From the NCBI GenBank assembly GCA_051362555.1, contig CM120645.1, forward strand, positions 12,834,001 through 12,898,000: a stretch of 64,000 bases of DNA. Reading direction: 5' to 3'. A program made the position numbers and the translations under genes. Below the pieces are notes generated by a model, which saw nothing but the letters and a program-made list of their open reading frames with translations, did not search any database and had not been told where the DNA came from. The stretch is from Lingula anatina. Its lineage: Eukaryota; Animalia; Brachiopoda. Shown here piece by piece: positions 1 to 61,623 of the stretch; within the stretch, counting starts at the first letter, position 1, and every line of letters begins with the position of its first letter.

Positions 1-3000
1 TGGTGTAACGCGGAGGTGTCGCTGAGAACCGCTTTAACGGCCCTGGGCGGCTGGGAGGAGTGGCACTGTTTACTGAATGGAAACGAAATGCAATAGTTCA
101 CATGTACCCCTTATCAGGAAGAAGGTTAAAAGACAAATTAATTTAGAAGGAGGAATATCAGAATTCGTAATGCGTAAACATATTTCAAACCAAAACCCTA
201 AGAATTGATGAATCTATATATGCTTACACCATGGCAGGGATAGCCGACATCGTCCAGATGCACCAATACATTAAAGAAAACACGTCGATTTAAGCATTAA
301 ATATTTTATATTCACATATTTTATATCATATGGTACTCTGATATATAACACTTAAAATTGGACAAACTTTGCAGGGTCTGATGCATTTATACAATCATAG
401 CCTAAAAGGTGTCTCTTTTCATTTTACGTGTAGGCTACCCTTTATCGTTACCTTTGTTTGGAATGTACATGTTTTTTATAGTCTCTTTTGACTTACCGTC
501 TACGTTTGACGAATACAACAACTGTTACAACAATTAATATCAGCACTATCACTCCAGTAACGCCCACACCGATACTGAGACCAATGTTGGGGTCTGTGGA
601 TGCTGCTTGGGTACCATCCCCTGGCAACACCGCTGAATAAAATAAACAGTTTAGCTTTAACTGTTTTATATGCTCCACTAGTTAGCGAACTTTTATTTAA
701 AAAGTACAATCTTTGATTTTGCATAAAAATAAGCAAAGGGTTTTCAGTTTTATTTTTCTGAAATGTAAAGATAAACACTGCACATAATGTAACAATTAAT
801 GTAGAAACAGTATTTCGATCAAAGTTATAACAGTATTGTAGAGGACCACATAGCGTGTCTGAGTGTCAAAGTATTAAAGTGGAGAGTGATTTTATTACAG
901 ACCCCTGTCTGAGTCAAATTGCAGACACCTGTCTGCGTTGATGACCAAGTCAATTTGCATGGGGATTCGAGAGGATACCCATTATTCATATGCCTTAAAA
1001 TTCGTACCTGTACAACTCAGAGAGTCCACCCCAAATCCACCGGTTTCATCACACGTCAAGGTTACACTGGTATTACCATCTCGGAACTGAAATCCTTTTA
1101 TGCATTTGAATTCAACTGATGCCATGAAGAACAGATTCGTACCATCAGAGGTCGTCACTGTATTGTTTAAATGAGGTAAAGTACATGTTCTTTTTATGCA
1201 GTCAGGTATTGGCGGTTCCAGAGTATTTGTCGCAATGCATTGTGACTTAAATGGCACGTCGACCTCAAACCCAGAAAAATGATATCCAGGAATGCAGGAA
1301 AATGTCAAATTCTGCATGTAAACATATGGTCCTTCTGCTGCCAAATTCAAATTCAATTTATTACCAGGAAAACCACACGATATGGGAACACAGCTAGGCA
1401 AACTCTGATCAAATGTACCATCGGCTTGACAAGTTAGGTTCTTGATCATTGACGTGTCGTTGAATTGGAAGCCAGTGTCGCATGTATATGTGACAGTTTG
1501 TCCTTCAAAGGTAACGTAACGCTGTGTTACCTGTCTCAGGTGATCATTTACAGGAAGGACACATGTTCCTGGAAGTAAGGCAAACCTTTTCAAGTTTATG
1601 AAAAGTCCAATAAAAACAGCAGGAATTGTACACATAAATATTACGAGGGTATAATCGTTAGGTGAACATGTAGCAAACTGACGATTAAATGTATAATTCT
1701 AAATCTTTTCTTCGTTTTCTATTTTGATGTCTTTTTGATATCAGACTTACTGGTGCACGTTTTCCTCTCCCCTTCAAACGTTCCTCTAGGACTGCAAGTC
1801 AGTGTGAAACTGTAACCAGAACCATCGCTGAGTTGATACCCACTGTTACAGGTATAGGTAACAGTGCTGCCAAATCTGTAACCTCCAGGTGCCGGAGAGG
1901 GGGCTGCGTTAGGTATAGTCAGGGCAGTGCATTCCACATCTAAAAACAAAGTGTATGTCTGTAATGGAATCCATCAGTCACAATAATGATAAAAAATGAC
2001 AACTTAATTGCACAAAGGACCTTATTTATTGATGGTTTCCACTAACACTTCTATCTTTTATTTATTACTTTCATTTGCATTAGAAGAGGTTTATGATAAA
2101 TGCAAAAGCGATATCTTTGAGGGTCTAGTAGTGCTCCATGTGTATGCTGTTTAATTCTGAAACAGTCGTACCGATTTTTATTTGAATAGTTTGCATCATG
2201 TTTTTCTATCCGAAGCATAACATTGTGAAGACACCTATTTATGTAGAGGATGCATTAAAATACATGGACGTAGGGGCGGCTCCAGAGTTATTTGAAGGGG
2301 GGGTCCGGGGATGGGATGCGAAACCGACCCTCCTCCCCCCTTGGCATGGGGTTCGGGGGCCGCTTAAGGGCCCCGAAAATAATTGGTATTTTAGAGGGCG
2401 AACGGTGCCATTTGGTACGGTTTAGAACTATGATTCATCTAGTCAAAATTATAATTTCAGGACCCCCCTAACCTCCCTTCTAAATCCGCCACTCTGGACG
2501 TATCTAAATAACAATGAAAATCAACGGCCTACTTACAACCAAGACACTGGTCACCGGTACGTCCCAGGTTACACACACACTCCTCTGAAGATATCTGTGT
2601 CAGTGAAGTGTACGTTCTCACACACGTTCCTCCTGTAGAGCAGAGGCAGTTGTAGGAGGGATGGCCTGTAGGAAACATACCAAACCTTTGGTTACTCTTT
2701 TTGGTAATTCAAGAAGTTGCTGGATAGTTAACGTTTATTTGTGTTAACGTAACTTCTGAATGGTATTGGGTATGTTTGATAGGTTTTGACCGTATTCTTT
2801 GACACACCAACATCGTTTTAACTTCCTCAGTACTTTATCTTACTTTACTTTGGGTCTTTATTCACCTCCATGAGATAATATCCTTATTGAGAAATTAAAA
2901 AAAAAATAAATATCTAAATAAAAATAGTGATTAAAAATCATTTTGATTTGCATCTTACCAGGACATTGTTTCATTTGATGGTGACGAACATTGCTTCCAA

Positions 3001-5110
3001 ATCTTAATCGACTGCACGAAGTAGAACTGTAATGGAACCAGCACCACCTCCCATCCCAGTCAACTGCCTCACATGTTGGGTCATAGTTACAGGCCTGTAA
3101 ACAGCGGGATAGTGGCCTATAACCCTTTAGTGCGCCTCCGCTGTGGCTTATATTTTCATATACGTACAACACGTACTCTGACACTAAAACAGAAGATTTT
3201 CAGAATTAATATATATATATATATGTCTGATGAACAGTCAGTTGTCACGTTTTCTACAGTTATAACGAGGTGTACATTATGTAAGCCGTTTAGGTCACAC
3301 CTCTATATTGGAAAAGGAAGTATCTGAAATGGATTTATTTTCAAAGTCAAATTCTTGGTTGAATTCCAGTTGATACTGTGGCCGGTGTCTATTACATGTT
3401 CAGAAACGGCAGAGCTGGTATTGCCAACAGTCACTGATGTTCTGTGTTCGCTTACCCTGGTGTTCAACTGCCTACCTTTCTTACCAATGTAAAAGCAATT
3501 GCAGCCATGACAGTTGATCTTACACATACTGTATATATAGTCCCACAACGCTGTTCTTGAGGGGTCTTGTCCTTTGGTGCCACTAAGTATTGTTTCAATG
3601 TGCACTGGGGTCTGAAAGTCCTTTTGACACTCACCGGATTTTTTCCAAATTATTTTTCATCAGTTTCATCAATTTGCCCCTCATTGTGACTGGTTGGTTT
3701 TTGTTTTGTTGCAGCAGAATATCCCGAAAGACAGTGAGTCCTGTACCCTGGTGGTGAGATTTTGATACATTGGGCATGGTCTCTGTGTAGGTACATCAGT
3801 CTGGGCATTACTCTATAAAACTGTGCGGACCGTTCCGTTTGGCAATGTCTGTCTTTTTCGTGCCATTCTGCCACGGAATAACAATTTTGTAACACACTGC
3901 TTGTCGCATTTCACACACTGCAAAACCGACAAATTCTTCTGTGCAGTAGTTGCCGACATGTGGATACTTTTTTGACAGAACCATACCCTCCTAAAGTCAA
4001 GTTTTGACCAGCTCAAAGGAGCACTACCCAATTAAATCACTGCATATTACGCAATACAGCAGAGCAATAGACATGGTAGTGAGTTAATTGGTAGCGACAC
4101 ACCTTACTACACACGTCTTCTCTATTTACATATCTTATATGAAAAAGGAACTCAAAAAAGAACTCATTTTTACTTAGGCATAAAACATTCCATATTAAAT
4201 GTCTAGTCTGTAGATCCTGCACACTATCTCTGAAGCGCAAGAGATTCCATAACTTCACTAGGTATATGTCGAAACGGGGAGAAGCTGACATTGTAATTAA
4301 ATGATATAAAATGGTAATATGCCATTTTAAGTAGGAAAATAAAAAAGGACATTTGGTTCAGGAGATGGATAAAGAAAGATCACGTTTTTATCCAGTTGTA
4401 ATCTGCAGCAAAAAAGTGTATCAGTAATACTCACTTCCACATACTGGCGGTTCCTTATCAAAAACATCCTCTCGGTCAGTGCACGTGATTGTAAGAGTAC
4501 CGTATATATGGATGTATGGAGGTGCGACACACGTGTAGGTAACACTTTGGTGACTGTTAACACGGGCAGTAAATGGGGTTCGACTTGAATGAGGAACGTC
4601 TGGCACGACACACCCTATAGTACGAAATACCCAAGTGGTCAAAACATTTTTTCTTTGCATGAACAGGTGTCTTTTTTATAAATAGTTGTCTCGTTTTTCT
4701 AATACTATTCGCAGTTAAAGCATTTTATGGATATATATTTATCCTCTTTTCTTTCGGTGTTAACTACACACATTGGACAATAGAAGTGTTACCCCCTGAA
4801 TCAGAGTAATCAAAGTTATTAACCTGAACAGGCGGAATATAAGCGATGTCAGAATATCGATACAGTTGAATTGTTCAGTCAGAACCGTTTCTTTTGTGAA
4901 ATTTGATGTTAATAAAATGATATCAGGAGCACATCATTCCACAGCCATTTATCTCTCCCAAAGTATTGGTTCAGAAGGGGTGACACTTCTATTGTCCAGT
5001 GTGTGTAGTATAAGTGTGACCAGAGACAACTTACCCGCGTCAGTTCCATGTAGGTCAACGACCAAACTGTATATACAGAAAAATACATACAGTTGTAACA
5101 ATTCCTTCAT
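1..5110 (-). CDS. Gene A: sushi-PAN-EGF-4x sushi single-pass receptor with class II tail (3' end runs off window)
   Basis: Exons with GT-AG ends: signal 5110-5035 (MKELLQLYVFFCIYSLVVDLHGTDA), sushi1 4614-4435, PAN 3183-2959, EGF 2665-2537, sushi2 1939-1751, triple-sushi 1568-1008, TM 632-497 (GLSIGVGVTGVIVLILIVVTVVVFVKRR), tail exon 72-<1 (KQCHSSQPPRAVKAVLSDTS, homologous to the start of gene F's tail). Ectodomain introns are phase 1; the TM/tail intron is phase 2. Confidence 0.85.
2273..2494. mobile_element. hAT-like MITE in gene A intron
   Basis: Imperfect termini GGGGCGGCTCC...AATCCGCCACTC, flanked by 8-bp direct repeat TGGACGTA (2265-2272, 2495-2502). Confidence 0.55.
3303..3810 (-). mobile_element. 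Penelope-like retroelement relic (GIY-YIG endonuclease fragment)
   Basis: ORF 3303-3605 reads CKINCHGCNCFYIGKKGRQLNTRVSEHR...SAVSEHVIDTGHSINW, the CxxC-YIG-R-EH pattern of Penelope endonucleases. Degraded; boundaries approximate. Confidence 0.75.
4767..5005. mobile_element. TA-flanked MITE (Tc1/mariner-type)
   Basis: TIR CACACATTGGACAATAGAAGTGTTACCCCCTGAA ... TTCAGAAGGGGTGACACTTCTATTGTCCAGTGTGTG with TA on both sides; related copy at about 37496-37717. Confidence 0.65.
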
Positions 5111-5876: not shown

Positions 5877-6690
5877 CTTACTCTGAAACTGGCGCTCGCA
5901 TAGCCAGAATAGCCAGAGTCTTGTGGACGATGTAATGGCGACGAGGTTAAGTTAGTTTCCTGTGTTGATCAGGAAGTATATCACCTTTTACATTTTTTAT
6001 TTCAACGTGACCTAGATTCACGTGCACTATGTACATAAGTTAAACGTCTATACCTGTGCGGCAAGAATACTTGTTGTTTATTAGTGTCTTACCCCCTGTA
6101 GATGGCGTCATGCTAATACAATATTTAAATCCATTTGTACAAAGTAAGGCAGAAGAGTATTACGGCTAACGCAACGAAAAGCATGAAGATTCTAGATATT
6201 ATTTGCTATTTTTAATATGATCTAAATAAAAATATCGAAACTTAAGCTTTTACATTACAAGTTTATCTTTATATTATCAACTTCTACAATATGGACAAAC
6301 AACAGTGCAGTGTCTTCAGTAGTAATAAAATATTACAAGGCAGTGGCAACAGAGGTTGGTACCATTGTTTTCATGTTTATATTTACCCTTTAGTAGCTTT
6401 GTTGTTAACACGGAGTAACACCGTGGGTCGTGTAAAATATAAAATGGGTCACTTCCTTGTTCACAAAACTTCGCAGATACTCACGTAGACCTCGAGCTCG
6501 CCAGACTTTGACAAGTCTTATCTTTTTAAGGTCATTCAACTGGCTACGGTAAGTATTAAACCCGTTACACGTACATGTACTATAATCAGTACACATAAGC
6601 ATCAGAAAAGGTTCCGAAAGAATTGATGTAGATTGATCAGGATTGAACAGTATATTTGATAGTGTAAAAGCGACAAGGCAGGTAAGTGTA
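5877..6690. promoter_or_regulatory. Putative bidirectional promoter / non-coding first exons of the A/B pair
   Basis: Minus-strand donor at 5871-5876 (homolog 42439-42443); CAGGAAGT near 5970; TATAAAATGGGTCACTTCCTTGTTCACAAAAC at 6438-6469; plus-strand donor CAG|GTAAGT at 6681. The block recurs at about 24500-25260, 42440-42920 and 53490-54400. Confidence 0.5.
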
Positions 6691-6748
6691 AATGCTTTGT
6701 ACAGTAAGTGACATGTTCTACAGGATACTTTAACTCACAGTACTTAAG

Positions 6749-9700
6749 TGTTGGGGGTGGTCGGCTCATGCCCTAGTTAGATTCCACTTTACCAAAATAA
6801 CACGATTCAGAGCTGGGCCTCTGAGGACGTGTATTTTGACAGCGCCCCTTGCATAGTTGAGAGCGACTTTTTGAGTGTGTAAGGCTTCTCGCCTTTATTG
6901 TGAGGAAAGATTGTCTCTGATAGGAAGGTAGGTGTCTCACCTACATAGTATCAGATTTATAGATACCGGTCTACATAGCTAGGTGCCCTGAAAAGGGCAT
7001 TTCGTGATTGGCACGATAGAGGCGTCTCGCCTTTCGAGGGAGGGGGGAAGGTGGACTGGTTGCAGAAAGCGCTTTTCGGTCAACAAGTGACCTTCATCAG
7101 CTGCAGAGTCCGAGATAAAAAAAAAAAAGAAAAATTTAGGGACGTAGGGGTTGGTAGGCAAAGGTGTCTCGCCTTTGTTTAGTAAGTTTTCATCAATGGT
7201 GTCTCGCCATTGTGAATGATACGAGCCATCTCGGCTTCTAAGTATCATGCTTTGTTTAATGTGTTTTCATCAATGGTGTCTCGCCATTGTGAGTAATACG
7301 AGCCATCTCGGCTTTATAGTATCATGCTTGATCACAAGTGTCTCGCTTGTGTCAAGGTGGACGGTATGAATTGAGCATGTGAGTGGCTCAAGAGTCGGAG
7401 GTCGACTGAGATTTGTCGAAATTGTGTCAAATGCGAGAACGAGGCCGGGATCTGATTGGTTGTTTTAGTTATGACTTTTGATTGGCTGTTCTCGTGGTGC
7501 ATCTTGATCCTATCTGTTTAGATGTAGTTTGTTTGGTTACATTTTTTTTGCAAGGTTTTTTAACCTCGGATCAAATTCATCAGTATCCTAATTCTGTGCA
7601 TGTGCGTATTAACACTGAGCTGTCGTTGGCTTAGTTGGTCTCTATAGGCGTGTGTTGCTTTAAAAATATAGACCTTGTTTGAAGGGAACACCGACGTTAA
7701 GGGACACTGCAGTGTTGCGTGTTTCCCGTTGGTCCTAAATATGTGTCATTAAAGAACATTGTGATTGGCTGATTGTCAAGCCTTTGTCCGGTGTCTTATG
7801 TCTTGCGAGTCGAAAATGTATGCACAGAATCCTCCGACAAGTGTAATTTTTGGTTCAGTGGGTATTTGTCGGGTTTTCTTGATTACCACTATTGTTACTA
7901 GTGGGTAATAGGAATGTAGGTATCTCGCCTACGTGGTATGTGATTATCATGTGTCCATGTATCTAGGTACATGGATCTTCTTGTCCTTTATGATCCGTAG
8001 GTTAGAGCGTGTTTTGATAAAGCAGAAAAAACCCCGTCCTGCCAGTACCCAAAACACTAGCTACAAGGTAACCAATGTTAAGGGACGGTTCCCGGTACGG
8101 ACAGTCCGACATTGCGGCCGGCCCCAGGGCCAAGTGAATACATGTTGGGGGTGGTCGGCTCATGCCCTAGTTAGATTCCACTTTACCAAAATAACACGAT
8201 TCAGAGCTGGGCCTCTGAGGACGTGTATTTTGACAGCGCCCCTTGCATAGTTGAGAGCGACTTTTTGAGTGTGTAAGGCTTCTCGCCTTTATTGTGAGGA
8301 AAGATTGTCTCTGATAGGAAGGTAGGTGTCTCACCTACATAGTATCAGATTTATAGATACCGGTCTACATAGCTAGGTGCCCTGAAAAGGGCATTTCGTG
8401 ATTGGCACGATAGAGGCGTCTCGTGTTGGGGGTAGTATGTGTTGGGGGTGGTCGGCTCATGCCCTAGTTAGATTCCACTTTACCAAAATAACACGATTCA
8501 GAGCTGGGCCTCTGAGGACGTGTATTTTGACAGCGCCCCTTGCATAGTTGAGAGCGACTTTTTGAGTGTGTAAGGCTTCTCGCCTTTATTGTGAGGAAAG
8601 ATTGTCTCTGATAGGAAGGTAGGTGTCTCACCTACATAGTATCAGATTTATAGATACCGGTCTACATAGCTAGGTGCCCTGAAAAGGGCATTTCGTGATT
8701 GGCACGATAGAGGCGTCTCGCCTTTCGAGGGAGGGGGGAAGGTGGACTGGTTGCAGAAAGCGCTTTTCGGTCAACAAGTGACCTTCATCAGCTGCAGAGT
8801 CCGAGATAAAAAAAAAAAAAGAAAAATTTAGGGACGTAGGGGTTGGTAGGCAAAGGTGTCTCGCCTTTGTTTAGTAAGTTTTCATCAATGGTGTCTCGCC
8901 ATTGTGAATGATACGAGCCATCTCGGCTTCTAAGTATCATGCTTTGTTTAATGTGTTTTCATCAATGGTGTCTCGCCATTGTGAGTGATACGAGCCATCT
9001 CGGCTTTATAGTATCATGCTTGATCACAAGTGTCTCGCTTGTGTCAAGGTGGACGGTATGAATTGAGCATGTGAGTGGCTCAAGAGTCGGAGGTCGACTG
9101 AGATTTGTCGAAATTGTGTCAAATGCGAGAACGAGGCCGGGATCTGATTGGTTGTTTTAGTTATGACTTTTGATTGGCTGTTCTCGTGGTGCATCTTGAT
9201 CCTATCTGTTTAGATGTAGTTTGTTTGGTTACATTTTTTTTGCAAGGTTTTTTAACCTCGGATCAAATTCATCAGTATCCTAATTCTGTGCATGTGCGTA
9301 TTAACACTGAGCTGTCGTTGGCTTAGTTGGTCTCTATAGGCGTGTGTTGCTTTAAAAATATAGACCTTGTTTGAAGGGAACACCGACGTTAAGGGACACT
9401 GCAGTGTTGCGTGTTTCCCGTTGGTCCTAAATATGTGTCATTAAAGAACATTGTGATTGGCTGATTGTCAAGCCTTTGTCCGGTGTCTTATGTCTTGCGA
9501 GTCGAAAATGTATGCACAGAATCCTCCGACAAGTGTAATTTTTGGTTCAGTGGGTATTTGTCGGGTTTTCTTGATTACCACTATTGTTACTAGTGGGTAA
9601 TAGGAATGTAGGTATCTCGCCTACGTGGTATGTGATTATCATGTGTCCATGTATCTAGGTACATGGATCTTCTTGTCCTTTATGATCCGTAGGTTAGAGC

Positions 9701-11212
9701 GTGTTTTGATAAAGCAGAAAAAACCCCGTCCTGCCAGTACCCAAAACACTAGCTACAAGGTAACCAATGTTAAGGGACGGTTCCCGGTACGGACAGTCCG
9801 ACATTGCGGCCGGCCCCAGGGCCAAGTGAATACATGTTGGGGGTGGTCGGCTCATGCCCTAGTTAGATTCCACTTTACCAAAATAACACGATTCAGAGCT
9901 GGGCCTCTGAGGACGTGTATTTTGACAGCGCCCCTTGCATAGTTGAGAGCGACTTTTTGAGTGTGTAAGGCTTCTCGCCTTTATTGTGAGGAAAGATTGT
10001 CTCTGATAGGAAGGTAGGTGTCTCACCTACATAGTATCAGATTTATAGATACCGGTCTACATAGCTAGTAACAATAGTGGTAATGAAGAAAACCCGACAA
10101 ATACCCACTGAACCAAAAATTACACTTGTCGGAGGATTCTGTGCATACATTTTCGACTCGCAAGACATAAGACACCGGACAAAGGCTTGACAATCAGCCA
10201 ATCACAATGTTCTTTAATGACACATATTTAGGACCAACGGGAAACACGCAACACTACAGTGTCCCTTAACGTCGGTGTTCCCTTCAAACAAGGTCTATAT
10301 TCTTAAAGCAACACACGCCTAAAGAGACTAACTAAGCAAACGATAGCTCAGTGTTAATACGCACATGCACAGAATTAGGATACTGATGAATTTGATCCGA
10401 GGTTAAAAAACCTTGCAAAAAAATGTAACCAAACAAACTACATCTAAACAGATAGGATCAAGATGCACCACGAGAACAGCCAATCAAAACTCATAACTAA
10501 AACAACCAATCAGATCCCGGCCTCGTTCTCGCATTTGACACAATTTCGGCAAATCCTCAGTCGACGTCCGACTCTTGAGCCATTCACACGCTCAATTCAT
10601 ACCGTCCACCTTGACCCAAGCGAGACACTTGTGATCAAGCATGATACTATAAAGCCGAGATGGCTTGTATCACTCACAATGGCGAGACACCATTGATGAA
10701 AACACATTAAACAAAGCATGATACTTAAAAGCCGAGATGGCTCGTATCATTCACAATGGCGAGACACCATTGATGAAAACTTACTAAACAAAGGCGAGAC
10801 ACCTTTGCTTACCAGCCCCTACGTCCCTAAATTTTCCTTTTTTTTTATCTCGGACTCTGCAGCTGATGAAGGTCACTTGTTGACCGAAAAGCGCTTTCTG
10901 CAACCAGTCCACCCTTCCCCCTCCCCCGGAAAGGCGAGACGCCTCGATCGTGCCAATCACGAAATGCCCTTGTCAGGGCACCCTAAGTAGATCGGTATCT
11001 ATAAATCTCATACTATGTAGGTGAGACACCTACCTTCCTATCAGAGACGATCTTTCCTCATAAAAAAGGCGAGAAGCCTTACACACTCAAAAAGTCGCTC
11101 TCAACTATGCAAGGGGCGCTGTCAAAATACACGTCCTCAGAGGCCCAGCTCTGAATCGTGTTATTTTGGTAAAGTGGAATCTAACTAGGGCATGAGCCGA
11201 CCACCCCCAACA
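6749..11212. mobile_element. Array of about 1.39-kb LTR-like units (tandem copies plus one inverted copy)
   Basis: Unit starts TGTTGGGGGTGG and ends TGAATACA (TG...CA). Full copies 6749-8142 and 8440-9834; partial copies 8143-8423 and 9835-10067; a more diverged inverted copy at 10064-11212. CCAAT boxes, TATAAA and AATAAA lie on the minus strand of the unit. No internal gag/pol and no TSD seen. Confidence 0.65.
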
Positions 11213-12453
11213 CAACAACAATTAGCCTGAACCGTATACGCATCTCTCTTAAATATTACCAACGTTATAAGGCCTGCAGTGTATGTAATTAGAACTGATT
11301 GCAATTTGTCATTATCTTGCATTACACCACGTACATACCTGAGGCAGAAGGGCGACAGAACGATTGGTCTTCTCTTGTAAGACATTTTAATTACGCGACT
11401 TAAAGGGAGGGGGTGGGTGGAGAGAGAAATCAGTACAACAAAGTTTTATAAATCAAATTTTTTTTACAGTTAGCGTTTTGTTTTGGGCCATTTTTCAAAT
11501 GGAGCAGTATACGGCCTGGGTTGGTTCAATTTAATAGGCCCTAAAGTGTACTTATGATACAGATTTTTTTACTCTCTTTCACGAGGCCATGTTCATGGAG
11601 TAGGGGGAGGGGTGGAATTAAGGTGATACTAATATGTCAAAGACAAGCTTTCAAAGTTCCAATTGCATAAACCATAATAGTACACGTAAGTCACCCAAAT
11701 GCCTTTAATTTGGCAGTGGTGGGTTTGGAAACAAATGACCACAAAGGTTTGGGTGTTCGTCCTTCAAAAAGGACGAACACTCCTTCGGAACACATATTAG
11801 GAGGGTACATGTACGAGTAGCTAGATAAAAATAAGATAACAAAGCAGGCGTGCTACTTTATCAGAACGTACTGATCGAGAAATGTTAATAAGTTACATCT
11901 CGCAGTTGTGTAGTAGTACAGTAATGCTGTTACATGCTGTAGCGCCTGGGATTATTTGCCTCTTTCTTGGTTCAATTAAAAAGTTGGGTTTTTTTTTTCT
12001 ATCAAAGATCTAAGAGGAAATGTCCTGGTGTTTTTTTAATATCAAGGTATTTATTCAATCTTATTTTTTTTACTTTGCTAGCTTCGAAAACTCGTTTTCG
12101 ACAGTAAGTCGGTCAGTCTGTCTGTCGTTTTTAAGTTTGTCTGTTAGCACTCTACAGGCCGCTTTCATTGTCCATTGTTGTGTATATACCATTTGTTCAT
12201 TAATGTATCTATTTATTTATTTATTTATTTGTATTTTATATTTGTTATTCTAATATCACATAAAGTTATACATAGAAAATGGTTGAACTTTTTTGTAACG
12301 TGCTTAAAAATACGTGTTGCTTTGATTATCAGAATTAAACTTCATTTGATAATGAGTCACCCTCTATGGTGATATTATTCAAGCAAAGATCTTTGTTTTT
12401 CGCATCAAGATACTTTAACTTGACATTTATTTCAGGGCAAGGACAACGAGACA

Positions 12454-15400
12454 ATGAAAGGACTGTCGAGCATTGTAAAACCTTTTCTGATATTTTGTTT
12501 ACTTCGTGGTTGGCAAGGGAACCATGCAGGTAAATGGAACAAGTTTTCACACAGGATGTATATGGACACCCCCCCCCCCCAAAAAAAAATATTACAATAA
12601 AACCATCCCTCTCTCCTGATTTATGTATTTTAGCAAATGTAAGTGAGACATTTTTATTCATGTTTCCACCCCCTTTTACATCTTACCAAAATCCTGGATC
12701 ATGCAGTGAATGCGTTTACTTATTTCAAAGATTCAAATTACTATTCTAAAGATGATATAATTTTGCATGGTGGTTGCTGTGTTGAGCCTGAATAGAAACC
12801 TGTCTCATCTCCAGGAAAGTAGGGTCGGCACCAGAATTTACAAAATGGTTATCCCCGTCAATAAACAGATTGATGTAGCTTCTTTCAGTACGTCATATAT
12901 GTGACTAGTTACTTTACTTATCTGTCGTTGCCGTTCCGCCGAACACTGGTGAAACTTGGTTACTAGTGGTATTCTTTTGGAGGAGGCAATGCATTCGCGA
13001 AAAACATCTCGCTAAAATTAGCCAGCTTTTTAAGATAAGATAAGATAAGATAAGATAAGATAAGATAAGATAAGAGTCTATTTAGCCAATTATAAAAATC
13101 GGAAATCATTTTCCTTTTGGAGCAATATACAGAGTAAAATAATAAAATAAAACAATACAATAAGTAGATAATTAAGAATTTAGTTTTGAGATCAAATTAA
13201 AATGCGTCACTGCACTTGGATACACTTGTACAATCATAGGTAAAAAGGGAGTAAAGACAAGGTGAAAGGACGCATCCCTGTGGTGCACCGGTATTTAAGA
13301 CTGTTGTTTTTGAGCTAAAAGGACCGACTTTAACAGATTGTCTTCTATCTAAAAGAAAGTCTAAAATCCAGTCACAAACAAAAACAGGTAGCTTAAGATG
13401 ATTTAAAAGTTTCAAATATTTTTTGGGGCACAATTGTGTTAAAAGCTGAACTGTAGTCAATAAATAAAATCCTTGCATAAGAGTGTTTGTTATCTAGGTG
13501 TTGTTCGTTTATCTTAAACACACATATAGTTTACATGATCTATATCTATTACTTTTTTAAAACTCAGCTTCGACCAAAGTAAATAACTTAATTATCGTGG
13601 AAGGCTTTAAGACAAGACTTTTTGAGATTTATACAACCTCTGATTTTAAGCTTGATTTTGAAAAAAATAAAAGAAAAATTAGTCTACTTTATCATACATC
13701 ACAATTTCAAAAATGAAAAAAAAAAACTCAAAATTTAAAATCAAGTGCTCCATATATGTATATCTATATATAAGGTTTTCTTACCATCATGTGTACTGAC
13801 AGATAATGTGTTTGATAGGGAACCACCAGTATGTGGACGTGAGTATTTCTTTCACTGTGTATATTTTTCCTCAGATATCTATTAAATAAAAATCAAGGGC
13901 TTTCTTTATTAATTTCTTGAGTACTATGGGTATATTTTATCTACATTACATTGTGTAAATATAAAAAAGATACATTTGATTTTTTTAAAAGAAGGTAAAT
14001 CTCTAAACATTGTAAGCTATATATCCGTGCACCGGTGTATTCAGGATTTTACTTGGGGTAGGGTCAAGAGAGGCATGCGTTTGGGGCGGCAAATAATTGC
14101 ATCGATCCGCTTGCTGAACCCTTCCTGGCATAAAACGTACCCCGAGTTTGTTAATACCCCAGGTACCATTTGATTTGGCCACATGCTACTGGATACAACA
14201 TATCATTCAGTAACTACACGTATGTATGACAAGGGAAGTGGTTGGTCGATAGACAAGGCATACTGAATACAACAAATTGACTCGGTTGCATTGAAAATAA
14301 ATATATTTTAGATACTTCCTTTCCCAATTTGGAGTTGTGACTCAAAGGGCTTATATAATGCACACCTCGTTATTACTGTAGGAAACGTGACGGCAGCTGA
14401 CTCTTACCTCATACATATATATCATTTCTGAAAATCTTTTGTTTCAGTGCCAGAATACGTATTGTATCTATATAATAATATAAGCATCAGCGGAGGCTCA
14501 CGGAACACTAATTGGCCATTATCCAGCTGTTTACAAGCTTGTAACGAAGACCCAGCATGTGAGGCAGTTGACTGGGATGGGAGTTGTTGGTTTCATTACA
14601 GTTCTTCGTCGTGCAGTGGATTAGGATTTGTAAGCAATGTTCGGCACTATCAAATGAAACGATGTCCTGGTAAGCAATTGAAACAAAATTTTTGTTCACA
14701 ATTTTTATTCTGTTATTAATTTATTAATATGTTTTATCTTATTAATTTAGTAAGATAAAGTAGTGAGTAAGTAAAAACGGCTTTGGTGTGTCATAGAATA
14801 CGGTCAATATCTATGAAACATACCCAACATCATTTAGAAAGAAGCTACTTACGTAATCACAAATAATCGATAATTATCCAGCAGTTGCCTGTATTACCAA
14901 AAATGTGCGGTTTGATTTTCTACAGGTAATCCCGCCTACAACTGCCCCTGCTCTACAGGAGGAACGTGTGTGAGAACATACACCTCACGGACACAGATAT
15001 CTTTACAGGAGTGTGTGTGTAACCTGGGACGTACCGGTGACCAGTGTCTTGGTTGTAAGTGGGACTTTGGTTTCCATTGTTATTTCTCACACTATGATTG
15101 AGATCGAAACCAAAGCAACGCCTGTAAGAAAAAAACAGCCCTCAAAGAAATCACATGAAATCAAATGAAATAGACAGATAAATAAATAAGGAGTGTAAGT
15201 GGAAATCATCAATATATAAGGTTCTTTGTGCAAGTGTTCACTTTTTTATTATCATTGCGACAAACAGATTTCTTTACAGACATACACTTTGTTTTTAGAC
15301 GTGGAATGCACTGCCCCAGCTATTCCCAATGCAGCTCCCTCACTGGTACCTGGAGGTTACAGAATTGGAAGCAATGTTACCTATACCTGCAACACTGGGT

Positions 15401-22645: not shown

Positions 22646-22699
22646 TTAGTTTTAGTGTTTTCATGTGTTTTGGTATGTTGACCACTTTTTACAGTATCA

Positions 22700-48200: not shown

Positions 48201-50494
48201 ACACTATGTTTTTAGTCGTGGAATGTTCTGCCCCAACTATTCCTAACACAGTTCGCTCACCGGCAACTGAAGTCTACAGATTCAACAACACTGTTACCTT
48301 CACTTGCAACAGTGGGTATCAATTCAGCGATTCCAGTTCCAGCTTCACACTGACATGTAGTCTCAGAGGAGAATTTGAAGGGGAGAGAAAAACATGTATC
48401 AGTAAGTCTGCAATAAAGAAGGCAGCGAGATAGAAAACTAAGGAATAAATTGAGAATTATTAATGAAATCATCACTCTGATGCAGTTTGACATTTTATAT
48501 GGTTATTTCTGTAATTCTTCTGACGGTATTAAAACCTTACGGATTTGAATAAACTTGAGTAGATAAAGAAATTGAAAAAACCCTCCACTTCCAGGAACCT
48601 GTGAATTCTCCCATCTGGGCAATCACCAGAGACAAGTTACACAGCGTCCCGTTACCTTTGAGGGACAAACTGTCACATATACATGCACTGATGGCTTCCA
48701 ACTCAACGATACGTCAACAGTAAAGAACCTCACTTGCCGAACCGATGGAACATTTGACCAGAATTTACCTAGCTGTGTTCCTATATTGTGTGGTTTTCCT
48801 GGTAATATACTGAATTTGAATTTTGCAGAAGGACCATATGTCTTCAAGCAGAATGTGACGTTTTCTTGCATTCCTGGATATCATTTTGCTGGATATGACG
48901 TCGAAGCGTCGTTTACGTCACAATGCATCAGAACAGACACTTTGGAACCACCTGTACCTGACTGCAAAAAAAGAACATGTACTTTGCCTTATCTAAACAA
49001 TACAATGACAACTTCTGATTATACGAATCTATTCTTCATGACTTCAGTTGAATTCAAATGCATGAAAGGATTTCAGTTCCCGGATGGTAGTACCAGTGTT
49101 ACCTTGGCGTGTGATGAAACCGGTGGATTTGGGATGGACACTCTTAGTTGTACAGGTACGAGTATTGAGGGGTATGTATAGTGGGTGTCCACTCCTATCC
49201 CCGTGAGGTTGAATTGGTCAGACCAGGGTGTCATCAACTAAAAAAATAGCATCCACTATAACACCCTTATGGTCAGGGAACGTGTGATCTTGCATAATGC
49301 TCTAAAAGTTTTTGTTGAAATACTTTTACTAGGATACTTGATACTTGTTAAGTTATTACATTATGTGCAACCTGAGTATTTATGCTTAAGAAAATAATTG
49401 AATAATAAAACACTTGGTTAATTAAGGGTTTGGCTATCTAGTAAGGCAAAAAAGTGATATCGTTGTTGTTTTCAGTTTCACCTTCAGGAACGTTGCCTGA
49501 AGCTGGTGCCAAGGCAGCACGCTCAGACTCTAACCTTGGTGTCAGTGTCGGCGTGGGCGTTACTGGCGCGATAGTGCTGATATTATTTGTCATAATTGTT
49601 GTATTCATCAAACTTAGACGGTAAGTGGCATAGAACCATTAACATGTTGTTTTATTCATTCCTATCAAACATAGCGATAAAGGTTTAATGTAGAATAAAA
49701 GAGTGTTTATGGCCGCTGTGACTGAAAACGTGTGATATATTCTAGCAGTATAAATACTACATGCCACACGGTCCATTTCAATCTATAACCATGTTCCTGT
49801 TAGATAAATATGGACATATTCATTTCCATTATGTGAAAATGTTATGTATTTGGCCCATCTTGACGATTTCAGTTATCTCCCCATGATAAATTTTATGTGT
49901 TCTTAGATTTTGTTTTGGGCAATGTTTACACAATTCGAATTAAGATCGATATTTCTCCTTCTACCTCTCGTATGCCTTCAACCTACTTGCTGATAAGTGA
50001 TAAGTGTGAACTATTGTTTTTCGTTTCCATTCAGAAAACATTGCCACGCATCTCAACCGTCCAAGGCCGTTAATGCTGATCACAGCGACATCTCAGAGCT
50101 ATACCAAAACAGTTTGAGTCCGCCAGACAGTGTTGATAGGGATCACGAGTATATGTCACTGGAGGCCCAAACCATGTCAACAGTTAGCCACGTGGCTGAG
50201 TATGCTAACGTCAATGACGGAGATTATACTGTTCTGCGCACTGCAGCAAACGCAGCTAGTAACAGGCACCCAACTCCTGCTAGCGCGGTTAACAGTTCGA
50301 GTTCGCCAAGCAGCGCTGATAGGGAACACGAGTATATGTCACTGGAGGCCACAACTATGGCAACAGATAACAACGTGGTTGAGTATGCTAACGTCAATGA
50401 CAGCGCATATACTGCTCTTTGCATGTCAGCAAACGAAACTAATCAACGACATCCACCAGCTCCTGGAATAGGCCTATATCAGAACGAAGTGTAA
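45207..50494 (+). CDS. Gene F: sushi-PAN-EGF-4x sushi single-pass receptor with duplicated class II tail module; about 651 aa
   Basis: Signal 45207-45282 (MKGLSSILKSSLIFCLLCGWQEGNA), sushi1 46466-46642, PAN 47154-47375, EGF 47680-47808, sushi2 48216-48401, triple-sushi 48595-49155, TM 49476 (or in-frame 49488)-49620, tail 50035-50494. Sum 1956 nt. Confidence 0.87.
45834..46087 (+). mobile_element. Helentron-associated (HINE/DINE-1-like) non-autonomous element
   Basis: Starts ATTACCTCCGCCAAGGAGGTTATG; has a (TGTC)n tract, subterminal inverted CCTTGGCG, a 3' hairpin GCGCTCTCGGAGTGC and a CTAGT end; absent at the paralogous site near 57052. Confidence 0.6.
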
Positions 50495-56426: not shown

Positions 56427-59400
56427 ATGAAAGGGCTTTCGAGCATTTTAAAATCATCTCTGATATTTTGTTTACTTCGTGGATGGCAAGAAAGCGACGC
56501 AGGTAAAGGGAACAAGTTTTCACACAGGATTTACATGTACACCCCAACCCCTAATCTCCCAATGAATAACTGAATAAATAAAAAGCACGACATGAGACAA
56601 AAGAGGAACACATTTTCTGTCCTGTGCCCTACAACCATTCTTATCTGCTGATTTATGTTTTTAGCAAATGCAAGCAAGATACTTTTCATTCATGTTTCCA
56701 CCCCCTTTTACATCTAACCAAAATCCTGGATCATGCAGTGTATGCATTTACTTATTTCAAAAGTTCAAAAGATTGTTCTAATTTTGCATCGTGATTGCTA
56801 TGTTGAGTCAGACTAGAAACCAGCGTAATAGGAATGGAAGTCCTAGGAAAGGAAGTCCGGGTTCCCATATGATATTAGTACAGGTTGGGGTTAGTTGGAG
56901 TATTGGGGTTAGGATAGGGACAAATGTCACCTGTACAAAGTAACGGGAAGCGTTTCACCTTACTTTCTGCAAGGAAGCTGTCGCGATCCCCAAATTTACA
57001 AAATGTTATCCCCGTCAATAGACAGATTCGATGTAGCTATTTTCAGTACGTTATATATGTGACTAGTTTCTTTACTTATCTGTCGATGTCTGTCCTCCGA
57101 ACACTGGTGCTACTCTGGTACTAGTGGTATTTTTTTTTTTTTTTTTTTTGTGGGAGGCAATGCATATGCGAAAAATATGACGCTAAAATTAGCTAGATTG
57201 TTCGTTTATCTTACCCACACATACAGTTAACATGATCTATATCTATAACTTTTTTTAATTCAACTTCGACCTAAGTATGAAATTGATTTACATTAATAGC
57301 TCATAGACATGAATTTTTGAGATTTATTCAACCTCTGATTTTGGGATTGATTTTGAAAAAAAAAGAAAAATTAGTCTTTGTTCACATAAACCACAACCTA
57401 AAAAATGAAAAAAATTAAAATTAAAAACCAATTTACCAAATCCTTTGTATGTTTAAGGTTGTCTCGTACCAGACGTTCTTCATTCAAGTCGAACTCCATC
57501 TAATGGCGGTGTGAACAGTCAAGATATGGTTACCTACACGTGTTTAGCACCATATATCCATATATACGGTTTTCTTAGCATAATGTGTACTGACAAAAAT
57601 AATGTTTTTGATAAGGAACCGCCAGTATGTGGACGTGAGTATTTCTCTTTATATGGATTTGTACTGCAGATTACTTTTGAATAAAACTCTCATATTTTCT
57701 ATATATTTTCTAATTTTCTATTTTCGATGTGACATACTTTATCTTTGCTATCAAAACAAAATATAATTCTATTTTCGAATGAGAATACAACCGTTCCTTA
57801 CAAAGCATTTAAAACGTATTCCGCACACAGGTGTAATGAGAGTTTCACATTTAAGGCTGGGGCTGGGTGGTGAGGCATGGGTTTCAGAATGAAGACATGT
57901 ATTCTCACTGGTCTGATGAACTAACCTTTATGGTTAAAAGTGGAGGTGAGGGGTTTACATACAAGAACGCAATGATTTATATCGCTCAGTTATTATGTAT
58001 GACATGTGAGGGAGGTTGCACGACACCCAGGGTGCACTAAAATTGTGAAGACAAGAATGCGGCTTGGCTGCATTGAACTTTTTCCATGTCGACACATGTA
58101 CATGTATCTGACTCAAAAAGTGTGTACTTCACACCTCGTAATCACTCAATAAAATGCAAGCACATCATTCCATTTCAGTGCCAGAATACGTGTTGTATGC
58201 GTCTGAAAATAGAGGTCTCAATCATGGCACGTATAAGGGCGACAAGCCACTATCCCAGTGTTTAAAGGCCTGTAACGAAACCAACACATGTGAAGCAGTG
58301 GACTGGGATGGCAATTGTTACTTCCATTACAGTTCTACGTCGTGCAGTGCCCTTTACTATAGAAATGGTCCAAGCAACTATCAAATGAAGCAATGTACTG
58401 GTAAAATGCAATTTAAGGAATTTATTTGCACTAGTAATGGCGTTTTTTCAAAATGCCTTGCTTTGTACTTATAATTTTATCGATGGATTTGTAACGGGGA
58501 TGAATAATAAGTTAAACATAATTTTCAGAAAGTAGTATTACTCGTGCTTAAAAACGTATAATATACGATATTACCGGCGGTGGCTGTAATAAAATAATTA
58601 CATGAACATAACCAGTAACGTCATAAATGAGCTAATTACACAATCAGAAATATTGTGTATGAATCAACAACGCAGTAGCTATAAACTTTGGTATGTTTCC
58701 TACAGGTAATCCCGCCTACAGCTGTCCCTGCTCTACAGGAGGAACGTGTGTGAGAACATACACCTCACTGATACAGATATCTTCAGAGGAGTGTGTGTGT
58801 AACCTGGGACGTACCGGTGACCAGTGTCTTAGTTGTAAGTCTGACACTGTTTTCCATTGTTTTTTATTTTCATACTTTATAACTAAGACCGAGATTGCCT
58901 GCACAAAGAAACAAACATGTTACGATGTACATATAAGTTGTTTTATAGCCTACATGAATATGCACCTAAACAATAACTTATGCTACATTTTTATTAAAAA
59001 TGTGATGCAAGGTAAAACTTTTAGGTTCGTTATCAATATAATTAGCCATTTATTCGTGATGCTCTAAGAAATGGTCAGCATACAAAAATATATGTATGGC
59101 TACATTTATTTGACTGAGCTGGAGTGTCGTTACCTTTAGGTATAGTTTTAATGGAAATCTTTAGAGTTTTTATGCAACCAAGCGTCAGCTTTACGTCGCC
59201 GTGACTATTTACAAAAATACACTATGTTTTTAGTCGTGGAATGTTCTGCCCCAACTATTCCTAACACAGTTCGCTCTCCGGCAACTGAAGTTTACAGATT
59301 CAACAACACTGTTACCTTCACTTGCAACAGTGGGTATCAATTCAGCGATTCCAGTTCCAGCTTCACACTGACATGTACTCTTAGAGGAGAATTTGAAGGG

Positions 59401-60266
59401 GAGAGAAAAACATGTATCAGTAAGTCTGCAATAAAGAAGGCAGCGAGATAGAAAACTAAGAATAAATTGAGAATTATAAATGAAATCGTCACTCTGCTGC
59501 AGGTTGACCTTTTATTTGGTTGTTTCCGTAATTCTTCTATTATAACTTACACGAATTTGAATAAACTAGAGCAGATAAAGAAATTGAAAAAAAATCTCCA
59601 CTTCCAGGAACCTGTGAATTCCTCCATCTGGGCAATCACCAGAGACAAGTTACACAGCGTCCCGTTACCTTTGAGGGACAAACTGTCACGTATACATGCA
59701 CTGAGGGCTTCCAATTCAACGATACGTCAACAGTAAAGAACCTTACTTGCCGAGCCGATGGAACATTTGACCAGAATTTACCTAGCTGTGTTCCTATTTC
59801 TTGTGGTTTTCCTGGTAATAAACTGAATTTGAATTTTGCAGAAGGACCATATGTCTTCAAGCAGAATGTGACGTTTTCTTGCTTTCCTGGATATCATTTT
59901 GCTGGATATGACGCCAAAGCGTCGTTTACGTCACAATGCATCAGAACAGACACTTTGGAACCACCTGTACCTGACTGCAAAAAAAGAACATGCACTTTGC
60001 CTTATTTAAACAATACAGTTACAACTTCTAATAGTACGAATCTATTCTTCATGACTTCAGTTGAATTCAAATGCATGAGAGGATTTCAGTTCCCGGATGG
60101 TAATACTAGTGTAACCTTGACGTGCGATGCAACCGGTGGATTTGGGGTGGATTCTCTTAGTTGTACAGGTGCGGGTTTTTAATGAATATTTATAATGTAT
60201 AAGTACAAGTACCCTGAGAATCAGAGCACCCTGAGAAGGTAACGGAATAAAGGCAACGTGTTTGTC

Positions 60267-60307
<41 letters not shown>

Positions 60308-61623
60308 AATAAGCGCTTTGTCCGCTCTTTAGTTAAAAAATACACTGGAATAAGAACTCAGGGTAGGGTATGTTATCCTGTACGTTTATTTTGTATTCTT
60401 TAAAATATTGTTCGCTTTGTGTAACGTTACAAAGCTAATGGCGTCTACTTACCATTAATACAGGTTTTGTGTGCAAAGGTGGAAAGGTATTCTAAAACTG
60501 GCTGAATTAGGGTTGATTTATGAATCCTTTTTTAAAGAAGTTTGTTAGTCGTGAATACATATGAAATGCTATGCAGAGGTGTCAGAAAATACTTGTGAAG
60601 TAGTTCACCTATTTTAGGCACAATTAAGGCTTAATTTTCCCATAAATAAAAATACGCTATCTGTTATCCATAAAAACATAGAAAGTGGTTTAAGGTAACC
60701 TGTTTATTTCCTTATTATCATTCAGCGGTGTTGCCTGGGGCTGGTACCCAAGCAGCGTCCACAGATTCTAACATAGGTGCCAGTGTCGGTGTAGGCGTTA
60801 CAGGAGCAATTGTACTGATATTACTTGTTGTAATAGTTGTTGTATTCGTCAAACGTAGACGGTAAGTGTCATCAAAACGAGTTGTTTTATTTCATTTCTG
60901 TAAAAGCTAATGATAGGCCTGGGTCTCACCAATACCATATAACCATATAATTAACACATTTTCTTTGATATTTAACCTTTTATGCATTTGATGCACATTG
61001 ATGGTATCATTTAAAATGTTGTATGTATATCCGTCATGATCTATAAATTCGTTGGTTGTTGGATTGGTTGGTAAATGGAACGTTTTTCCTTTCCTTTCAG
61101 GAAACGTATGGCAAACCCAAATGAAGATATCGATGTATCAAGCAACGGAAAGCTCAGCAACACAATGCACACAACATCCAATACTCACATTGACACAAAT
61201 CTGTACGAACTCGAGGGAGAATGTCCAATGGCAGACCGGTATGATCAGTCAAATAATATGAGACAGAATTCTAATAACAAAAACCAGGCCTCTGATGTAC
61301 AGGAACTATATGCCGTGCCTGACAAATCCAAAAAGACCAAAAAAGGCAAGAAGCAACAAAATACCCCTATAAGCTATCCAGACGATGCATATGAATATGT
61401 CAGCAAACCTTCAGCCGAGGCATCTTCCGTTTCAAGACAGGATTGTAGTAGCACCTATGAACTTGCAGGGCAGTTTCACAATGGAGGCTATGCCCAGTGT
61501 ACTGATGATGCTGATGACGTGGAGTTTGTTGAAAATGATATTTATGAAACAGGAGGCGTTGACAACATGAGCCATGCGTATGTTGAGTCAGCTGAAAATG
61601 GCATTTATAATTCGTCGGTGTAA
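56427..61623 (+). CDS. Gene G: sushi-PAN-EGF-4x sushi single-pass receptor with full-length class I tail; about 669 aa
   Basis: Signal 56427-56502 ([25 protein letters not shown]), sushi1 57458-57634, PAN 58179-58400, EGF 58706-58834, sushi2 59234-59419, triple-sushi 59608-60168, TM 60726-60861, tail 61101-61623 ending ENGIYNSSV. Sum 2010 nt. Confidence 0.88.
60269..60306. repeat. (GT)n microsatellite
   Basis: Direct reading; other simple repeats are (ATT)n at about 23283 and 29550, and (GT)n plus poly-G at about 63088-63127. Confidence 0.9.

What the first reader, a model, noticed from the sequence alone, without database searches (positions are those of the whole stretch)
1..61623. Candidate invertebrate paired-receptor cluster: sushi-PAN-EGF-sushi ectodomains on two alternative signalling tails
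Seen: seven paralogs share one ectodomain plan but carry one of two non-homologous tail exons. Class II (C, E, F; A by homology of its first 72 nt) has DHEYMSL, EY[A/V]NV and SVYTVL/SAYTAL, the last matching the ITIM consensus S/I/V/L-x-Y-x-x-L/V/I. Class I (B, D, G) lacks an ITIM and has LYAVPDK (YxxP), DDAYEYV and ENDIY (NxxY). Established: similar ectodomains with different tails, clustering and rapid birth-and-death define vertebrate paired receptors (KIR, LILR, Siglec, PILR). Inference: an independently evolved recognition system (immune or allorecognition) on a domain architecture I do not recognise as a named family.
Basis: partly seen in the sequence, partly recalled or inferred. Interest (0 to 1): 0.88.

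Follow-up and report, generated by a model that had tools for sequence, protein, structure and literature searches.

The report
Brachiopod receptors with swapped signalling tails
A lamp shell (Lingula) carries a cluster of seven related cell-surface receptor genes that share and exchange their outer parts but end in one of two unrelated tyrosine-rich inner tails, which likely makes them an independently evolved 'paired receptor' system for recognising foreign or non-self surfaces, although opposite signalling and an immune role are untested.

Summary
The cluster is real and comes from the brachiopod Lingula. Seven paralogs (A-G) encode signal peptide, sushi, PAN-like, EGF, sushi repeats, TM and one of two unalignable tails. 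Six have open spliced models (A is cut by the window); C lacks its signal-peptide exon and is a probable pseudogene. RNA covers both tail classes, and RefSeq holds both classes as mis-named 'SVEP1-like' or uncharacterised proteins. New evidence for pairing: F and G are 89-98% identical over ectodomain exons and introns but carry different tails; ectodomain trees reject grouping by tail; each class I gene's closest PAN exon is its adjacent class II neighbour; and between two assemblies F's tail differs at 1 of 152 residues but its PAN at 14 of 72. Against: the ITIM is only the relaxed S-x-Y-x-x-L form (7-26% by chance per tail), there is no ITAM or charged TM residue, class II also carries YxN sites, positive selection is not shown, and cell type and ligand are unknown. 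Verdict: works like paired receptors (about 0.55), on a scaffold and in a phylum where my searches found no description; membership is untested.

The parts
1..5110 (-). Gene A (class II tail, cut by window edge): SP 5110-5035, sushi-1 4614-4435, PAN 3183-2959, EGF 2665-2537, sushi-2 1939-1751, sushi-3-5 1568-1008, TM type 1 632-497, tail 72-<1
   Evidence: GT-AG model open for 522 aa; tail start matches class II
12454..18497 (+). Gene B (class I tail): SP 12454-12529, broken sushi-1 remnant 13748-13838 (skipped in phase), PAN 14448-14669, EGF 14926-15054, sushi-2 15299-15487, extra sushi-2 15950-16138, sushi-3-5 16493-17050, TM 17502-17637, tail 17990-18497
   Evidence: open 668-aa model; remnant; no RNA laid on B
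20889..23903 (-). Gene C (class II tail), probable pseudogene or reduced gene: PAN 23903-23679, sushi-2 22378-22190, mini-exon 21830-21792, TM type 2 21613-21523, tail 21147-20889; no SP, sushi-1, EGF or sushi-3-5 exon
   Evidence: remaining exons in frame; missing exons not found by nhmmer; PAN exon 92% identical to D
29162..34447 (+). Gene D (class I tail): SP 29162-29237, sushi-1 30344-30523, PAN 31037-31261, EGF 31564-31692, sushi-2 32065-32253, sushi-3-5 32450-33007, TM 33301-33445, tail 33955-34447
   Evidence: open 664-aa model; RNA depth on exons and tail in X7-X9
36150..42015 (-). Gene E (class II tail, short ectodomain): SP 42015-41940, sushi-1 41683-41504, PAN 40222-40001, EGF 39717-39589, sushi-2 39287-39099, sushi-3 38902-38696, mini-exon 38105-38067, TM type 2 37835-37745, tail 36399-36150
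   Evidence: open 460-aa model; RNA joints 41505/40222, 38696/38105, 38066/37834 in X7, X8, X9
45207..50494 (+). Gene F (class II tail with the motif unit duplicated; chimeric): SP 45207-45282, sushi-1 46466-46642, PAN 47154-47375, EGF 47680-47808, sushi-2 48216-48401, sushi-3-5 48595-49155, TM 49476-49620, tail 50035-50494
   Evidence: open 651-aa model; tail 151/152 identical to XP_013384001.1; G-like up to about 49140
56427..61623 (+). Gene G (class I tail): SP 56427-56502, sushi-1 57458-57634, PAN 58179-58400, EGF 58706-58834, sushi-2 59234-59419, sushi-3-5 59608-60168, TM 60726-60861, tail 61101-61623
   Evidence: open 669-aa model; RNA joints 58834>59234, 60168>60726, 60861>61102
5968..12158 (.). 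Shared divergent intergenic block between A and B (homologous blocks at 24515-26305, 42609-44631, 53794-55265), here split by a 4.5-kb repeat insertion
   Evidence: 71-85% identity between the four blocks

Best explanation
This is a Lingula gene cluster of type I membrane proteins whose ectodomain exons are exchanged between neighbours while two unrelated tyrosine-motif tails are kept, and it likely works as a paired-receptor system in which a variable PAN-like domain would bind a foreign or self surface ligand and the tail would decide the cell's response. Shown: an ancestral head-to-head gene pair (minus-strand gene with class II tail, plus-strand gene with class I tail) repeated three to four times; mosaic genes (F is G-like to the end of the sushi-3-5 exon and then carries an A-type class II 3' end); the PAN exon is the most variable exon; both tails are transcribed. 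Inferred from known motif preferences (recalled, not tested): after clustering, Src-family kinases phosphorylate the tails; class II (EYMSL..EY[A/V]NV..SxYTxL, two YxxL about 25 residues apart, doubled in F) recruits an SHP2/Corkscrew-type phosphatase and Grb2, damping or tuning the response; class I (LYAVPDK, YEYV, ENDIYE) recruits Crk/Nck-type SH2 adaptors and a PTB adaptor to drive actin remodelling, adhesion or engulfment. Gene conversion would keep the two outputs pointed at similar ligands, as in Siglec-11/16.
For: F vs G: SP to sushi-3-5 exons and introns 89-98% identical, falling to about 70% at the end of that exon, tails unrelated. Trees of PAN, sushi-2, sushi-3-5 and joined ectodomain exons all reject a class I clade (p-AU 2e-5 or lower in 5 of 5 ectodomain sets; the TM set did not reject, p 0.40). 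For 3 of 3 class I genes the closest PAN exon is the adjacent class II gene (B-A 84%, D-C 92%, G-F 91%); C/D differ at 18 of 225 PAN bases but 35 of 189 sushi-2 bases (Fisher p 0.0018, one of 21 pairs tested), while same-class B/D differ most at PAN (51 of 222 vs 84 of 876, p 5e-7). F vs RefSeq XP_013384001.1: tail 1 of 152 residues different, PAN 14 of 72 (p 5e-7), sushi-2-5 17 of 247, against 1.6% genome heterozygosity (PMC4595640, passage). Both classes in an independent assembly, a class I and a class II model on contigs of equal length twice. RNA depth on both tails in X7 and X9. Class I motifs LYAVPDK and DVxFVxNDIYE survive in a distant Lingula paralog (XP_013389593.1; 0 of 1000 shuffles), and the class II three-tyrosine unit is kept in 6 of 6 copies, one with G for E before the middle tyrosine. 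PAN/apple fold is top in all fold searches, among them parasite lectins.
Against: No test of binding partners, cell type or signalling direction. ITIM match is the relaxed form and arises by shuffling in 7-26% of tails; class I tails have a similar chance (21-25%) and simply lack it. No ITAM in any tail and no charged TM residue in 7 of 7 genes. Class II has YxN sites usually read as activating; NxxY/YxxP tails can be inhibitory (CD200R/Dok, recalled). The same words occur in unrelated sushi-TM proteins, and a sponge protein has YAVP and an ITIM in one tail. pN/pS over all PAN pairs is 0.75 in the variable loops and 0.45 in the core; 1.27 for loops in the three neighbour pairs, on few sites and loops chosen after seeing the alignment. 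PAN-specific homogenisation is clear in only 1 of 3 pairs and that pair includes C, which lacks a signal peptide. Conversion between close inverted neighbours happens without any function. The PAN model is poor (pLDDT 52, best Z 3.6).
Confidence: 0.55

Rival explanations
1. Non-immune adhesion or cell-contact receptors (mantle, neural, gamete or larval recognition) in which the two tails give different but not opposing outputs.
For: Sushi, EGF and PAN are general extracellular modules; sushi and PAN domains are listed in phosphate-shell proteomes (PMC13425148, passages); exon coverage was seen in 3 of 6 runs laid and almost none in X1, X4, X5, which shows restricted expression of unknown kind; TM type 1 has GxxxG repeats suited to dimers.
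Against: None of six family accessions was found in that paper's supplement (it may use other ids); single-pass receptors with long phosphotyrosine tails, exon shuffling, pseudogenes and between-assembly PAN divergence fit host-pathogen pressure better than a structural role (inference).
Confidence: 0.25
2. A neutral birth-and-death tandem array: two old paralogs with different tails were duplicated as a unit, and proximity-driven gene conversion and unequal crossing-over made the mosaics; the 'pairing' is a by-product and the proteins act independently.
For: Repeated intergenic blocks show unit duplication; B, C, E carry deletions; no significant dN/dS above 1; F/G nonsynonymous PAN divergence (15.5 of 168 sites) is about the intron level (6-10%); A/B PAN is not unusually close (ratio 1.37, p 0.09).
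Against: Six open reading frames with purifying selection on most exons (mean dN/dS 0.35-0.66); tail motifs conserved across distant paralogs; F-type chimera present in two assemblies with an almost invariant tail. Relaxed constraint with conversion is also what was reported for the real pair Siglec-11/16 (PMC5701461, passages).
Confidence: 0.2

Closest known systems
Vertebrate paired receptors, especially Siglec-11/Siglec-16 (PMC5701461, passages)
   Same: Head-to-head neighbours a few kb apart, ligand-binding exon homogenised by gene conversion, different signalling ends, pseudogene partners.
   Different: Ig-superfamily lectins; the activating member has no tail motif and uses an ITAM adaptor. 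Here the scaffold is sushi-PAN-EGF-sushi, both members have long tyrosine-rich tails, there is no charged TM residue, and function is untested.
Botryllus Fester family / FcoR (PMC12582321, passages)
   Same: Invertebrate clustered receptors encoded as gene pairs; tails with ITIM and other tyrosine motifs; copy-number variation by pair.
   Different: Ig-superfamily; receptor and signalling co-receptor are separate genes; hemITAM present; tied to a known allorecognition locus. No sequence or architecture match was found here.
Hydractinia Alr family (bioRxiv 10.1101/2022.03.04.482883, passages)
   Same: Clustered single-pass proteins with related ectodomains and unalignable tail groups, some with ITIM of the same relaxed definition.
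   Different: V-set/I-set Ig and Fn3 ectodomains, true ITAMs, colonial animal with proven allorecognition.
Drosophila Draper-I / Draper-II, CED-1, MEGF10 (PMC8092387, passages)
   Same: A protostome precedent for one ectodomain with an activating (NPxY, ITAM) or an ITIM/Corkscrew tail.
   Different: Splice isoforms of one EMI-EGF gene; here tails are fixed per gene, NxxY not NPxY, no ITAM.
Biomphalaria polymorphic transmembrane clusters PTC1/GRC and PTC2 (PMC10635097, passages)
   Same: Lophotrochozoan clusters of single-pass genes with hyperdiverse ectodomains.
   Different: Other domains; linked genetically to parasite resistance; the passages read describe no two-tail design.
SVEP1 (RefSeq name of XP_013399600.1 and XP_013384001.1)
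   Same: Sushi and EGF modules.
   Different: No VWA or pentraxin domain, about 650 aa, single-pass with a cytoplasmic tail: the name is an automatic mislabel.

Membership tests
Paired receptors (functional class) | High ectodomain similarity between members with different tails | tested here: met
   F/G 89-98% nt over ectodomain exons and introns; tails unalignable
Paired receptors (functional class) | Clustered genes with ectodomain exchange by conversion or recombination | tested here: met
   AU tests reject grouping by tail; C/D PAN 92% vs sushi-2 81%; F breakpoint
Paired receptors (functional class) | Inhibitory member has an ITIM | tested here: inconclusive
   Relaxed S-x-Y-x-x-L in C, E, F and two RefSeq proteins, but chance 7-26% per tail
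Paired receptors (functional class) | Activating member has an ITAM or a charged TM residue for an ITAM adaptor (vertebrate type) | tested here: not met
   No ITAM pattern in any tail; no K/R/D/E inside the TM of 7 of 7 genes
Paired receptors (functional class) | Both classes expressed | tested here: met
   RNA depth on both tail exons in X7 and X9; spliced joints
Paired receptors (functional class) | Overlapping expression in the same immune cells | not testable with these tools
   Bulk runs with tissue not given
Paired receptors (functional class) | Opposite signalling and shared ligand | not testable with these tools
   Needs pull-downs, chimeras and binding assays
SVEP1/polydom | VWA and pentraxin domains, secreted, very long | tested here: not met
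   Pfam finds only sushi at significance in P0001 and P0002; TM and tail present
PAN/apple domain | PAN fold with its cysteine pattern | tested here: inconclusive
   Pfam PAN_1 E 0.026 and 0.0042, below cut-off; the leading VIA rows are PAN/apple proteins, best Z 3.6, rmsd 2.9, 51 aligned; Foldseek best E 0.42; Atlas structure TM 0.55-0.68 to PAN clusters
Fester/FcoR and Alr allorecognition families | Ig-superfamily ectodomain | tested here: not met
   Exons score as sushi, PAN-like, EGF; no Ig family hit

The most novel reading that the evidence does not exclude
Brachiopods evolved their own paired immune-receptor system on a PAN-lectin/sushi scaffold: divergently transcribed gene pairs put a phosphatase-recruiting tail and a Crk/Nck/PTB-recruiting tail behind the same, conversion-matched ligand-binding PAN domain, with no ITAM, Ig domain or DAP12-type adaptor, so that activating-versus-inhibitory pairing arose independently in lophotrochozoans with a different activating chemistry.
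Probability: 0.35. Interest if true: 0.85.

Novelty: new variant of a known kind. Interest (0 to 1): 0.62.

Why it matters
Paired activating and inhibitory receptors are well described in vertebrates, with candidates in a tunicate and a cnidarian, all on Ig scaffolds (Ly49-type lectins aside, recalled). A lophotrochozoan case on a sushi-PAN-EGF scaffold, with the same conversion signature as Siglec-11/16 but without ITAM or adaptor coupling, would show the design is a repeated solution rather than an Ig-family legacy. F and G are a ready-made natural experiment: almost the same ectodomain, different tail.

Tried and rejected
No whole genome is held for this window, so family size and flanks beyond the window were not counted. 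No RNA holder was listed by index; raw-read runs of the same species label were laid instead. The TM-to-class-II-tail junction was not among the displayed read joints (48 and 23 rows hidden); it rests on in-frame GT-AG sites and two RefSeq models. B and C were not covered by any lay. Alternative splicing between tails: rejected, one tail exon per gene. Assembly artefact for the F/G chimera: rejected, the F-type ectodomain with a class II tail and the G-type with a class I tail are both in RefSeq. Tail homology between classes: none; a distant paralog XP_013388999.1 has a tail with words of both kinds but only marginal scores (17-530 of 1000 shuffles). Positive selection: not shown. Homologues of the PAN exon outside Lingula: none (3 hits each, all Lingula), none among the 166 proteins held when scanned with a PAN profile except four Lingula records (only the best 150 of 1538 hits were listed, and those are dominated by sushi repeats), none in PDB by sequence; the Atlas lists a mollusc PAN/sushi cluster at score 0.81, a lead only. 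Atlas neighbours of the class I tail (SCIMP, LIME1, GAPT, poxvirus A36; scores 0.77-0.86) are below the bar, a lead only. No Rfam match. No earlier scan notes. Literature searches that found no description of this family: (0 papers; 25 of 348 listed, none holds 'ITIM'), and term look-ups in the two Lingula genome papers.
Full report
Observation. Self-comparison and exon searches give seven paralogous units, A to G. Snapping exons to AG/GT gives open spliced models for A (522 aa, cut by the window edge), B (668), D (664), F (651), G (669) and E (460 with a mini-exon found in RNA). Internal exons are phase 1-1, so they can be lost or duplicated in frame. The plan is not uniform: B has a broken sushi-1 exon and two sushi-2 exons, E ends after sushi-3, and C lacks signal-peptide, sushi-1, EGF and sushi-3-5 exons, none of which nhmmer could find, so C is a probable pseudogene although its remaining exons are in frame. 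The two tails are unrelated: in 9 of 9 cross-class comparisons the score is matched by 122-970 of 1000 shuffles. Each gene has a single tail exon.

Source and relatives. The closest proteins are from Lingula anatina: XP_013384001.1 (F-like, class II), XP_013399600.1 (A-like, class II), XP_013383993.1 (G-like, class I) and XP_013399599.1 (class I). They are named SVEP1-like or uncharacterised; Pfam finds no VWA or pentraxin domain. A class I and a class II model sit on contigs of the same length in both cases (31,596 and 490,344 bases), so the two-class layout is also in an independent assembly. Two distant Lingula paralogs exist on other contigs: XP_013388999.1 (PAN-EGF-sushi-TM, tail with words of both kinds) and XP_013389593.1 with its longer cluster member (PAN-sushi-TM), whose tail keeps LYAVPDK and DVxFVxNDIYE and beats 1000 of 1000 shuffles against class I tails but not class II. 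Outside Lingula the full-library search returned 1538 hits, of which the 150 listed are sushi-repeat matches apart from the Lingula proteins; PAN-profile searches found only Lingula proteins. This is weak evidence of restriction, as brachiopod relatives are poorly sampled.

Domains. Sushi domains 2-5 pass Pfam; sushi-1, EGF and PAN are below cut-off. The PAN call is backed by a low-confidence model (pLDDT 52) whose best structural matches are PAN/apple domains, including Toxoplasma MIC4 and Sarcocystis SML-2 lectins and the HGF N-domain (best Z 3.6, rmsd 2.9, 51 aligned; Foldseek E 0.42 at best), and by the Atlas structure search. Glycan binding is therefore a possibility, not a finding.

Genome layout and exchange. 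The genes stand as divergent pairs A-B, C-D, E-F, then G, with a homologous intergenic block repeated four times. There are two signal-peptide exon types (A,E and B,D,F,G) and two TM types (C,E and the rest). The simplest history (inference) is an ancestral head-to-head pair, class II on the minus strand and class I on the plus strand, duplicated as a unit and then shuffled. F breaks the rule: it has the plus-type signal peptide, is 89-98% identical to G in every exon and intron up to sushi-3-5, drops to about 70% at position 49140, and continues with a TM-tail intron and tail closer to A. Trees of five ectodomain sets all reject a class I clade (p-AU 2e-5 or lower); the TM set does not. For 3 of 3 class I genes the closest PAN exon is the adjacent class II gene (noticed after the fact; about 0.005 if the three were independent draws of 1 in 6). 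The effect is PAN-specific for C/D (18 of 225 vs 35 of 189 differences, p 0.0018, about 0.04 after 21 tests), ectodomain-wide for F/G, and not significant for A/B. In the PAN tree A+B has support 95/91 and F+G 100/100, but C+D only 47/5.

Variability. PAN is the most variable exon among paralogs (65% mean amino-acid identity vs 72-86%), concentrated in two loops. Between F and its RefSeq counterpart the tail differs at 1 of 152 residues, TM at 2 of 47, sushi-2-5 at 17 of 247 and PAN at 14 of 72 (p 5e-7 and 0.003); genome-wide heterozygosity is 1.6% (PMC4595640, passage). This fits diversifying pressure or conversion from other paralogs; I cannot separate them. dN/dS is below 1 for every internal exon on average (0.35-0.66), and the loop value of 1.27 for neighbour pairs is on few sites and post hoc.

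Expression. Of nine listed runs six were laid. In X7, X8, X9 exons are covered; in X1, X4, X5 almost not at all. Class II tail bin 49909-50509: depth about 10 in X7 and 3 in X9; class I tail bins: about 20-28 in X7 and 18-21 in X9. Joints match the models: EGF to sushi-2 (15 reads), sushi-5 to TM (34), TM to class I tail (7, X9), and for E sushi-1 to PAN (11), sushi-3 to mini-exon (12), mini-exon to TM (17). Most reads differ from the window by several percent, so they come from other alleles or paralogs and cannot be assigned to single genes. No TM-to-class-II joint was among the displayed rows. Tissue is not given.

Tails. Class II repeats a unit of three tyrosines (EYxSL, EY[A/V]N[V/A], xYT[A/V]L), kept in six of six copies (one has G for E before the middle tyrosine) and doubled in F and XP_013399600.1. 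The relaxed ITIM matches in C, E, F, but shuffled tails give one in 7-26% of cases. No tail has an ITAM and no TM has a charged residue. Class II also has YxN sites. Among 14 non-family sushi-repeat hits with a predicted TM and tail, 7 have YxxP, 7 NxxY and 3 an ITIM-like word (one of the 14 may have a false TM call), so the words alone prove little; their conservation is the better evidence. The assignment of effectors (SHP2/Corkscrew and Grb2 for class II; Crk/Nck and PTB adaptors for class I) is from recalled motif preferences and is untested.

Comparison. The definition of paired receptors and the Siglec-11/16 head-to-head conversion case are from passages of PMC5701461; that paper also reports relaxed rather than positive selection on converted exons. 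Invertebrate precedents seen in passages: Botryllus FF/FcoR gene pairs with ITIM and hemITAM (PMC12582321), Hydractinia Alr tails with ITAM or ITIM (10.1101/2022.03.04.482883), Draper-II binding Corkscrew through an ITIM (PMC8092387), Biomphalaria PTC1/PTC2 (PMC10635097). All use other ectodomains. Searches for a description of this family found none (supplement search of PMC13425148 for six accessions); subscription journals are not covered, and a 2018 survey of Lingula immune genes is recalled but was not seen.

Verdict. The anatomy and evolutionary behaviour are those of paired receptors, on an undescribed scaffold in a brachiopod. It meets the genomic criteria, fails the vertebrate-type activating criterion, and the functional criteria cannot be tested here, so it is reported as working like paired receptors (0.55), not filed as a member. 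Rivals are a non-immune contact receptor family (0.25) and a neutral mosaic array (0.2). Novelty: new variant of a known kind. Interest 0.62.

Noticed in passing
window 6745-11214: Nested non-coding repeat between A and B: two 1.6-kb direct copies 99.8% identical (6745-8376, 8436-10068) plus an inverted 1.15-kb copy at 96%, with internal 77-nt tandem units and no clear protein ORF; a recent non-autonomous transposon cluster or a local assembly duplication.
   Followed up: partly
window 27057-28923 (-): Broken non-LTR retrotransposon (RVT_1 E 1e-22, zf-RVT) in several frames between C and D.
   Followed up: no
window 56500 > 46464: 26 RNA reads join a G-like signal-peptide exon to an F-like sushi-1 exon, suggesting another mosaic allele in the sampled animals.
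   Followed up: no
window 38696-38710 (-): E uses a new splice donor inside the sushi-3-5 exon, leaving one unpaired cysteine just outside the membrane, a possible covalent dimer site.
   Followed up: partly
window 53794-55265 and 62776-62839: The divergent intergenic block is present upstream of G without a minus-strand partner gene, and a short match to the C/E 3' flank lies after G: traces of a lost class II partner.
   Followed up: partly
window 34445-34447, 18495-18497: D and B class I tails end 14 and 5 codons earlier than G, dropping the last tyrosine; the G-like RefSeq protein has the D-type end, so tails also shuffle within a class.
   Followed up: partly
P0106 (XP_013388999.1), P0111/P0153 (XP_013389593.1): Distant Lingula paralogs on other contigs; P0153 looks like two tandem PAN-sushi-TM genes fused by the annotation, so a second cluster may exist.
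   Followed up: partly
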